Below, one piece after another: positions 34,059-34,148 of a DNA stretch of 64,000 bases (its first letter is position 1; every line of letters begins with the position of its first letter). The position numbers were made by a program, and so were the translations under genes. This DNA is from Escherichia coli (lineage in GTDB: Bacteria; Pseudomonadota; Gammaproteobacteria; Enterobacterales; Enterobacteriaceae), in the NCBI RefSeq assembly GCF_003334385.1, contig NZ_QOWN01000021.1. The stretch is one strand, 5' to 3'. The notes beneath the pieces were generated by a model. The model did not search any database. It saw only the letters and a program-made list of their open reading frames with translations, and was not told where the DNA came from.

Positions 34059-34148
34059 TCAGGAGTGGTTTTCGAGGTAAAGGACAGCCATGACGATAAT
34101 CGCCGCCATAATCAGAAATCCTATCAGGATGTAAAATGCTTCTGCCAT
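34059..34148 (-). CDS. Putative 29-aa single-TM small membrane protein (possibly YldA)
   Basis: MAEAFYILIGFLIMAAIIVMAVLYLENHS; ATG preceded by gggaa about 6 nt upstream; hydrophobic helix; lies in the ybdR-rnk gap; part of longer ORF 34059..34247. Confidence 0.4.
   Translation of the reverse strand: MAEAFYILIGFLIMAAIIVMAVLYLENHS

What the first reader, a model, noticed from the sequence alone, without database searches (positions are those of the whole stretch)
34059..34148. 29-codon hydrophobic small ORF wedged between ybdR and rnk
The ATG-initiated ORF MAEAFYILIGFLIMAAIIVMAVLYLENHS has a plausible RBS and encodes one transmembrane helix with a short polar tail, like known E. coli small membrane proteins. 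It starts 4 nt past the ybdR stop on the opposite strand and would be missed by standard gene callers. I believe this corresponds to the K-12 small protein YldA, but I cannot confirm that from memory.
Basis: partly seen in the sequence, partly recalled or inferred. Interest (0 to 1): 0.5.

Follow-up and report, generated by a model that had tools for sequence, protein, structure and literature searches.

The report
Known small membrane protein gene yldA
The 29-codon ORF is the already annotated and experimentally detected E. coli small membrane protein gene yldA; the only new point is that it looks like a distant relative of YoaI, a small protein that activates the sensor kinase EnvZ.

Summary
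The ORF is real and sits exactly where reported: window 34059-34148, minus strand, ATG start, 29 codons, TGA stop, 3 nt from the convergent ybdR stop. It is the known gene yldA. RefSeq annotates it in thousands of E. coli genomes. It passes the curated NCBIfam equivalog model (57.9 bits, cutoff 45) and matches Pfam PF23689. VanOrsdel et al. 2018 detected the identical peptide by chromosomal SPA tagging. My own analysis confirms it is protein-coding. A 29-codon ortholog lies about 145 nt 3' of rnk in 34 of 80 enterobacterial species. Third codon positions vary most, and six residues never change. Its syntenic partner is rnk, not ybdR. About one third of E. coli genomes lack ybdR and carry a 52%-identical allele shared with E. 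albertii and E. marmotae. Function is untested. The new lead is a resemblance to YoaI, which activates EnvZ through Glu31: hhalign score 39.4, against a maximum of 22.8 in 400 permutations. YldA's invariant Ala21, Val22 and Glu26 align with YoaI's invariant Ser26, Val27 and Glu31. A role as a sensor-kinase modulator is therefore plausible (about 0.3) but inferred.

The parts
34059..34148 (-). yldA coding sequence: 29 codons plus a TGA stop, encoding MAEAFYILIGFLIMAAIIVMAVLYLENHS
   Evidence: Searches give the sequence and ORF. Searches give the RefSeq annotation. One search gives NCBIfam NF041476 at 57.9 bits (cutoff 45). One search gives Pfam PF23689. One search gives the SPA-tag detection in the literature. 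One search gives the codon-position conservation across 36 orthologs.
34154..34158 (-). Shine-Dalgarno-like GGGAA, 5-6 nt upstream of the ATG
   Evidence: Read directly. A purine-rich GGGGA/GGGAA/GGAAC block sits at the same distance from the ATG in the orthologous loci (alignment). Its function is inferred, not tested.
34149..34230 (-). yldA 5' region, lying between the rnk hairpin and the ATG. The K-12-type and ancestral-type E. coli sequences lose homology here, at about 34225-34229
   Evidence: locate the homology break, and one search shows the alignment. No sigma-70 consensus promoter was found here.
34231..34252 (-). Hairpin at the rnk 3' end, AGAGGATGC-ACUC-GCAUCCUCU, followed only by UUU. 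It is probably a leaky rnk terminator or a 3'-end stabiliser located upstream of yldA
   Evidence: Searches give dG -14.9 kcal/mol and z -4.3. The stem is invariant in all 36 yldA-bearing loci and is also present in 32 loci without yldA.
34286..34696 (-). rnk (regulator of nucleoside diphosphate kinase), the conserved upstream neighbour on the same strand
   Evidence: In one search, yldA always lies about 145 nt 3' of rnk.
32817..34055 (+). ybdR (zinc-dependent alcohol dehydrogenase), a convergent gene whose stop codon is 3 nt from the yldA stop. It is a variable neighbour
   Evidence: ybdR is absent from 1,818 E. coli genomes and from many species that still have yldA. The ybdR-yldA pair is listed as a convergent excludon in PMC12288877.

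Best explanation
This is yldA, a genuine translated gene for a 29-residue single-pass inner-membrane protein (probability about 0.97). It is tied to the 3' side of rnk. It is expressed either by read-through of the weak rnk hairpin or from a promoter that does not match the consensus; this point is unresolved. The peptide has a short acidic N-terminus (M-x-E), a hydrophobic helix of about 22 residues, and a tail of consensus E-R-H-W (E-N-H-S in K-12). By homology with YoaI it is most likely oriented with the N-terminus out and the C-terminus in. YldA is a distant relative of YoaI (probability about 0.8). I infer that it works as YoaI and other small membrane proteins do: its helix packs against a larger inner-membrane protein, most plausibly a sensor histidine kinase, and the invariant membrane-proximal Glu26 makes the critical contact, changing that partner's activity (probability about 0.3). 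What is shown: the identity of the gene, its coding conservation, its synteny, its ordered similarity to YoaI, and (from the literature) that the protein is made. What is inferred: topology, binding partner and physiological effect.
For: Identity. RefSeq annotates yldA here. NCBIfam NF041476 scores 57.9 bits against a cutoff of 45, and Pfam PF23689 scores 72.8 bits. The identical peptide was detected by SPA tag in MG1655 grown in LB (PMC6001520).

Coding selection. All 36 orthologs have exactly 29 codons. Entropy at codon positions 1/2/3 is 0.64/0.48/1.17, and uncorrected pN/pS is 0.385. M1, E3, A21, V22, L25 and E26 are invariant while their third positions vary.

Population. 5,423 of 5,426 complete E. 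coli genomes carry one of the two alleles.

Relationship to YoaI. 8 of 8 YldA sequences have the YoaI model NF041475 as their second-best hit among 18,950 families (19-30 bits), always in the same register, and YoaI's second-best hit is the YldA model. None of 20 composition-matched shuffles hits YoaI. hhalign gives probability 96.7% and score 39.4-39.6 over 27 gap-free columns. Permuted-column nulls give 8.7 +/- 2.2 (max 17.0) and 13.3 +/- 3.0 (max 22.8), with 0 of 400 reaching the real score. Among 18,067 natural ORF segments, YoaI is the best non-YldA hit of the YldA profile, and YldA orthologs are the best non-self hits of the YoaI profile.

Mechanistic analogy. In YoaI, S26, V27 and E31 are invariant, and E31A or E31Q abolishes both binding and activation of EnvZ (PMC11429745). 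In the shared register these positions fall on YldA A21, V22 and E26, and YoaI E8, I12 and F16 fall on YldA E3, I7 and F/Y11.
Against: No functional experiment on YldA was found in the searchable literature. YldA falls below the YoaI equivalog cutoff (22.5-30 bits against 45), and YoaI's invariant Ser26 is Ala in YldA. Similarity between two peptides of about 30 residues, each a single helix, could be convergent. yldA has been lost repeatedly: it is absent from 46 of 80 species loci, including Salmonella, the C. freundii group, Kluyvera and some Enterobacter. That argues for a dispensable or niche role. The K-12 allele has lost the Arg and Trp of the consensus tail. YldA was not among the 13 proteins from the tagging study that a tetracycline ribosome-profiling screen also recovered, so expression may be low. 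No promoter was identified.
Confidence: 0.7

Rival explanations
1. The ORF is translated, but the peptide has no function of its own. What matters is the act of transcribing and translating across this spot, for example as part of the ybdR-yldA convergent excludon, or to set the 3' end or stability of the rnk mRNA.
For: The stop codons of ybdR and yldA are 3 nt apart with no terminator between them. ExcludonFinder lists ybdR-yldA as a convergent excludon seen in at least 50% of RNA-seq samples. Both ybdR and yldA appear among the NaF-upregulated genes in PMC10100675.
Against: The amino-acid sequence itself is under constraint: six residues are invariant while their third codon positions vary freely, and the length is fixed at 29 codons in 36 species. 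The gene is equally conserved where ybdR is absent and no convergent partner abuts it.
Confidence: 0.1
2. It is a membrane-damaging toxic peptide of the type I toxin kind, kept in check by antisense transcription from ybdR.
For: It is short, very hydrophobic and overlapped by convergent transcription. Overexpression of its relative YoaI delays growth.
Against: It is single-copy and stably syntenic next to rnk across genera, which is unlike mobile, multi-copy type I loci. It exists without ybdR in a third of E. coli genomes and in many other species. No antitoxin sRNA family matched in Rfam. The tagged protein accumulates in ordinary LB cultures.
Confidence: 0.05
3. It is a non-coding element, either a conserved rnk 3'-UTR or sRNA sequence or a chance ORF, and the annotation has simply been propagated from genome to genome.
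For: VanOrsdel et al. warn that small-ORF annotation correlates poorly with detection. The region folds somewhat better than shuffled sequence (z -2.9).
Against: Variation has three-base periodicity. The ATG and the reading-frame length are invariant while the flanking DNA is full of indels. The protein was detected directly by SPA tag. No Rfam family matches here.
Confidence: 0.02

Closest known systems
YldA (UniProt YLDA_ECOLI; NCBIfam NF041476 'small membrane protein YldA'; Pfam PF23689 'YldA-like')
   Same: The sequence is identical to K-12 YldA. It has the same flanking genes, scores above the curated cutoff, and has the same 29-residue length.
   Different: Nothing differs. This is the gene itself.
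YoaI (NCBIfam NF041475; 34-aa inner-membrane protein, PhoB-regulated, activates EnvZ via Glu31; Vellappan et al. 2025, PMC11429745)
   Same: Both have one transmembrane helix. The alignment is gap-free and reaches the C-termini of both proteins, and the two families share a pattern: E-x-L-x-I-T...F...[AS]-V-L-x-[LI]-E-[RK]. The functionally critical YoaI Glu31 aligns with the invariant YldA Glu26. In K-12 both genes abut a convergent gene tail to tail: yeaK/yoaI with a 0-nt gap, ybdR/yldA with a 3-nt gap.
   Different: YldA lacks YoaI's five N-terminal residues (MNDQM). It has Ala where YoaI has its invariant Ser26. It scores below the YoaI cutoff. It sits at a different locus (next to rnk rather than yeaK/yeaL). 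There is no evidence for PhoB control, induction by low Mg2+, or binding to EnvZ.
Other small membrane-protein modulators of sensor kinases and transporters, such as MgrB-PhoQ, MgtS and MzrA-EnvZ (cited in PMC11429745 and PMC12648545)
   Same: They belong to the same general class: a very short single-pass inner-membrane protein that could act by binding a larger membrane protein.
   Different: There is no sequence relationship. Only a core-shuffled control sequence gave a negligible MgtS hit. For YldA, the target and the direction of regulation are unknown.

Membership tests
YldA (NCBIfam NF041476 / Pfam PF23689) | Whole-protein score above the curated model cutoff | tested here: met
   57.9 bits against a cutoff of 45, E 7e-16, aligned 1-29 of 29. 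Pfam PF23689 gives 72.8 bits, E 1.4e-20.
YldA (NCBIfam NF041476 / Pfam PF23689) | Sequence identity with the experimentally detected K-12 protein | tested here: met
   Identical to the sequence in Table 1 of PMC6001520, to RefSeq WP_000796528.1 and to the cluster named YLDA_ECOLI.
YldA (NCBIfam NF041476 / Pfam PF23689) | Conserved genomic position: same strand, immediately 3' of rnk | tested here: met
   The window layout is rnk, hairpin, yldA. The same layout, with about 145 nt of spacing, is seen in all 36 yldA-bearing loci.
YldA (NCBIfam NF041476 / Pfam PF23689) | The protein is actually synthesised and located in the membrane | not testable with these tools
   Synthesis is reported from SPA-tag immunoblots in LB (PMC6001520). 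Membrane localisation is predicted from sequence only.
YoaI equivalog (NCBIfam NF041475) | Score above the curated cutoff of 45 bits | tested here: not met
   22.5 bits for the K-12 allele and 19-30 bits for seven other orthologs. YldA is therefore not a YoaI equivalog.
YoaI equivalog (NCBIfam NF041475) | Invariant Ser26, Val27 and Glu31 (PMC11429745) | tested here: inconclusive
   In the shared register YldA has Ala21 (not Ser), Val22 and Glu26, all three invariant across the orthologs. Two of the three are identical and one is a conservative change.
YoaI-related superfamily (proposed here; distant homology) | Ordered sequence similarity beyond what hydrophobic composition explains | tested here: met
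   hhalign score 39.4 against permuted nulls with maxima of 17.0 and 22.8 (0 of 400 reach it). 0 of 20 shuffles hit the YoaI model, against 8 of 8 real sequences. The two families are reciprocal best non-self hits among 18,067 natural ORF segments.
Small-protein modulators of sensor kinases (functional class) | Physical interaction with a histidine kinase and a change in its output | not testable with these tools
   No experiment on YldA was found. This is inferred only by analogy with YoaI and EnvZ.

The most novel reading that the evidence does not exclude
YldA is a paralog of YoaI and acts in the same way, docking onto a sensor histidine kinase (EnvZ or another) through its transmembrane helix and its invariant membrane-proximal Glu26. 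It would thereby connect whatever controls the rnk-yldA transcript to a two-component pathway. On this reading the two deeply divergent E. coli alleles, with tails ...LEQRW and ...LENHS, could differ in partner affinity.
Probability: 0.3. Interest if true: 0.45.

Novelty: already known. Interest (0 to 1): 0.15.

Why it matters
The finding itself adds nothing to current annotation. yldA is named, has its own models in NCBIfam and Pfam, and its product has been detected experimentally. What this analysis adds is a testable idea about the function of a protein that has none assigned. YldA shares an ordered pattern with YoaI, including the glutamate YoaI needs to activate EnvZ. That points to a short list of experiments: two-hybrid assays against histidine kinases, E26 mutants, and OmpR-dependent reporters. 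The analysis also corrects the gene's context. yldA travels with rnk rather than ybdR, and it exists in E. coli as two old alleles that are only 52% identical. Anyone generalising from K-12 should take that into account.

Tried and rejected

2. The search for related loci with the two-allele alignment against genome contigs returned nothing, because tblastn cannot confirm a 29-aa match. I replaced it with a synteny anchor on rnk.

3. I looked for a sigma-70 promoter between rnk and yldA and for an intrinsic terminator after yldA. No consensus match was found in either the K-12-type or the ancestral arrangement, so the transcription unit remains unresolved.

4. I considered the 62-codon extension from the upstream ATG at 34247 and the 33-codon GTG extension (P0028). 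I rejected both. The upstream DNA is poorly conserved and full of indels, the GTG is not conserved across genera, and the ATG is invariant.

5. I considered the antisense 42-codon ORF at 34065-34193 (+). I rejected it because that frame contains stops in 14 of the 36 orthologous sequences.

6. Rfam has no RNA family at the ORF; the only match nearby is rnk_leader upstream of rnk.

7. I looked for yldA in supplementary tables of the SPA-tag and Ribo-RET papers, but none are held as text.

8. Pfam has no family for YoaI, so a shared clan could not be checked.

Full report
**Observation.** The minus strand of the window carries an ATG-initiated ORF at 34148..34059. It encodes MAEAFYILIGFLIMAAIIVMAVLYLENHS and ends in TGA. 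A GGGAA block at 34154-34158 lies 5-6 nt before the ATG. The convergent ybdR ORF ends at 34055, leaving 3 nt between the two stop codons. rnk lies upstream on the same strand at 34286-34696.

**Identity.** A 1-kb query around the ORF matches 5,423 of 5,426 complete E. coli genomes and is 100% identical to K-12 strains. RefSeq annotates the ORF there as 'yldA: small membrane protein YldA', WP_000796528.1. The peptide scores 57.9 bits against the curated NCBIfam equivalog NF041476, whose cutoff is 45. A 33-aa database version of it matches Pfam PF23689 'YldA-like' at 72.8 bits. The protein collection names its cluster YLDA_ECOLI. VanOrsdel et al. 2018 (PMC6001520) list exactly this sequence, with flanking genes ybdR and rnk, in their Table 1 of small proteins detected in MG1655. 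Detection was by chromosomal SPA tagging and immunoblot of cultures grown in LB.

**Is it really coding?** I checked this independently of the annotation. I used Rnk as a synteny anchor and fetched rnk loci from 80 species-level genomes. I then scanned all small ORFs in those loci with a YldA profile. A YldA ortholog is present in 34 of the 80 species loci, plus two E. coli reference loci. The species include Escherichia, part of Citrobacter, Enterobacter, Lelliottia, Leclercia, Pseudenterobacter, part of Kosakonia, and Phytobacter. The ortholog is always on the rnk strand, always about 145 nt 3' of rnk, and always exactly 29 codons long.

Across the 36 distinct nucleotide sequences, entropy at codon positions 1, 2 and 3 is 0.64, 0.48 and 1.17 bits. 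Mean uncorrected pN/pS is 0.385, with pS already near saturation at 0.62. M1, E3, A21, V22, L25 and E26 are invariant even though their third positions vary freely. The other five frames contain stops in 14 to 36 of the 36 sequences. The flanking DNA is full of indels, whereas the ORF has none. This is the signature of purifying selection on a peptide. It excludes both a chance ORF and a purely RNA-level element. The consensus is M-[SN]-E-I-L-x-I-T-L-x-[FY]-h-h-h-h-A-I-I-V-x-A-V-L-Y-L-E-R-H-W.

**Context.** The conserved partner of yldA is rnk, not ybdR. yldA occurs both with and without ybdR, and ybdR occurs both with and without yldA. Within E. coli there are two configurations. In 3,605 complete genomes the layout is the K-12 one: rnk, yldA, then convergent ybdR, then uspG. 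In 1,818 genomes ybdR is absent, and a different allele, MSEALGITAFYIFIAAIIVAAVLYLEQRW, lies between rnk and uspG. The two alleles are only 52% identical, whereas the adjacent Rnk is 99-100% identical. Homology between the two configurations breaks at about 34225-34229, immediately after a conserved hairpin.

The ybdR-less allele is the one shared with E. albertii, E. marmotae and unclassified Escherichia. The K-12 allele is closest to sequences from the C. amalonaticus group (72-76% identity) and is 59% identical to the C. sedlakii ortholog. This suggests that the K-12-type ybdR-yldA block arrived by recombination with a divergent donor, though that is an inference. The gene has also been lost many times: in Salmonella, the C. 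freundii group, Kluyvera, Trabulsiella and several Enterobacter species. One E. coli genome, HS-02, has an allele riddled with indels.

**Expression signals.** Right after the rnk stop codon there is a 9-bp hairpin, AGAGGATGC-ACUC-GCAUCCUCU, at 34231-34252. Its folding energy is -14.9 kcal/mol, with z = -4.3 against shuffled sequence, and it is followed by only UUU. Its stem is invariant in all 36 yldA-bearing loci, and it is also present in 32 loci without yldA, so it belongs to rnk. Consensus scans find no sigma-70 promoter between the hairpin and yldA, and no clear terminator after yldA, in either configuration. So yldA is transcribed either by read-through of a weak rnk terminator or from a promoter that does not match the consensus. 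I cannot decide between these. In the K-12 layout there is no room for a terminator between yldA and ybdR. The ExcludonFinder study lists ybdR-yldA among convergent excludons seen in at least half of its RNA-seq samples (PMC12288877).

**What does it do?** No functional study of YldA turned up in the literature search. The sequence nevertheless gives a lead. In NCBIfam, the second-best hit of the K-12 peptide is the model for YoaI (22.5 bits, E 8.7e-5). Seven other YldA orthologs behave the same way (19-30 bits), always in the register YldA 3-29 = YoaI 8-34. YoaI in turn has the YldA model as its second-best hit.

Because hydrophobic helices can match spuriously, I ran four controls:

- Ten full shuffles, and ten shuffles of the hydrophobic core that kept the polar ends in place, gave no YoaI hit at all.
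- A profile-profile comparison of 33 YldA orthologs against 18 YoaI-family sequences (collected) gives hhalign probability 96.7% and score 39.4-39.6 over 27 gap-free columns.
- 200 permutations of all YoaI alignment columns gave 8.7 +/- 2.2 (max 17.0). 200 permutations of the core columns only gave 13.3 +/- 3.0 (max 22.8). The reversed profile gave 12.5.
- Among 18,067 natural stop-to-stop segments from 632 kb of held DNA, YoaI is the best non-YldA hit of the YldA profile (16.9 bits; apart from the degenerate HS-02 remnant at 15.3 bits, everything else scores 6.7 bits or less). YldA orthologs are the best non-self hits of the YoaI profile at 22-31.5 bits.

The two families therefore share an ordered pattern. 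Common ancestry is the simplest reading, although convergence cannot be formally excluded for peptides of about 30 residues.

**Why the YoaI link is informative.** Vellappan et al. (PMC11429745) show that YoaI is a 34-aa inner-membrane protein that binds EnvZ in a two-hybrid assay and activates EnvZ-OmpR reporters. They report that Ser26, Val27 and Glu31 are invariant among orthologs. They also show that E31A and E31Q, in the short cytoplasmic tail, abolish both the interaction and the activation without affecting membrane levels of the protein. I confirmed the YoaI sequence from the K-12 genome.

In the shared register, YoaI S26, V27 and E31 fall on YldA A21, V22 and E26, all three of which are invariant in YldA. 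YoaI's invariant E8, I12 and F16 fall on YldA E3 (invariant), I7 (35 of 36) and F/Y11. Both proteins end three residues after the glutamate.

My best mechanistic guess follows from this. YldA inserts with its N-terminus out and its C-terminus in, and modulates a larger membrane protein, most plausibly a sensor kinase, with Glu26 as the key contact. I put this at about 0.3. It rests entirely on analogy. YldA does not qualify as a YoaI equivalog: it scores below the cutoff, has Ala in place of the invariant Ser, and lacks the N-terminal extension.

**Rivals.**

- A translated but functionless ORF, whose role is transcriptional interference with ybdR, is contradicted by the amino-acid-level constraint and by equal conservation of the gene where ybdR is absent.
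- A type I toxin is unlikely. The locus is single-copy and stably syntenic, no antitoxin RNA family matches, and the tagged protein accumulates in ordinary cultures.
- A non-coding element is excluded by the codon periodicity and by the tag detection.

**Verdict.** The added value lies in a corrected view of the gene's context (linkage to rnk, and two ancient alleles in E. coli) and in a testable hypothesis about function through YoaI.

Noticed in passing
window 32817-34229 compared with L002 3700-4000: E. coli is dimorphic at this locus. 3,605 complete genomes have ybdR plus the K-12-type yldA. 1,818 genomes lack ybdR and carry a yldA allele that is only 52% identical and is shared with E. 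albertii and E. marmotae. Homology breaks immediately 3' of the rnk hairpin. The K-12-type allele is closest to those of the C. amalonaticus group (72-76% identity), which suggests an old recombinational replacement.
   Followed up: partly
window 34231-34252 (-): The hairpin after rnk, AGAGGATGC-N4-GCATCCTCT, has a stem that is invariant at the sequence level across many genera (68 of 83 loci), while its loop and flanks vary, and only UUU follows it. Terminator stems usually covary rather than stay invariant, so it may have an additional sequence-specific role, such as a protein-binding site or an RNA-processing site.
   Followed up: partly
window 34742-34850 (-): There is a full-length match to Rfam RF01771, the Enterobacteria rnk leader (124.9 bits), upstream of rnk. 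It includes the terminator-like stem at 34751-34779 found by the consensus scan. If yldA is read through from rnk, it would be under the control of this leader.
   Followed up: no
L084 16783-17391 (K-12 yeaK/yoaI): yoaI, the apparent paralog of yldA, also sits tail to tail against a convergent gene: yeaK ends at 17286 and the yoaI stop begins at 17287. This mirrors the 3-nt ybdR/yldA junction. It may be coincidence, or it may reflect a shared tendency towards convergent-overlap regulation.
   Followed up: no
L085 515-810 (E. coli HS-02): One E. coli genome has an ancestral-type yldA interrupted by several 1-5 nt indels and a 3' deletion, and the gene is not annotated there. This is either a rare pseudogene or an error-prone assembly.
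   Followed up: partly
L003 (E. coli plasmid NZ_LR890350.1, 95639-102046): A 300-kb E. coli plasmid carries a Citrobacter-like copy of the uspG-rnk-rna neighbourhood next to IS26. Its Rnk is 93% identical to the window's, the rnk hairpin is present, and there is no yldA.
   Followed up: no
window 34059-34247 (-) and 34065-34193 (+): The mechanical ORF list also contains a 62-codon in-frame upstream extension of yldA, starting inside the rnk hairpin, and a 42-codon antisense ORF. Neither is conserved in the orthologous loci, so both are probably artefacts of ORF listing.
   Followed up: yes
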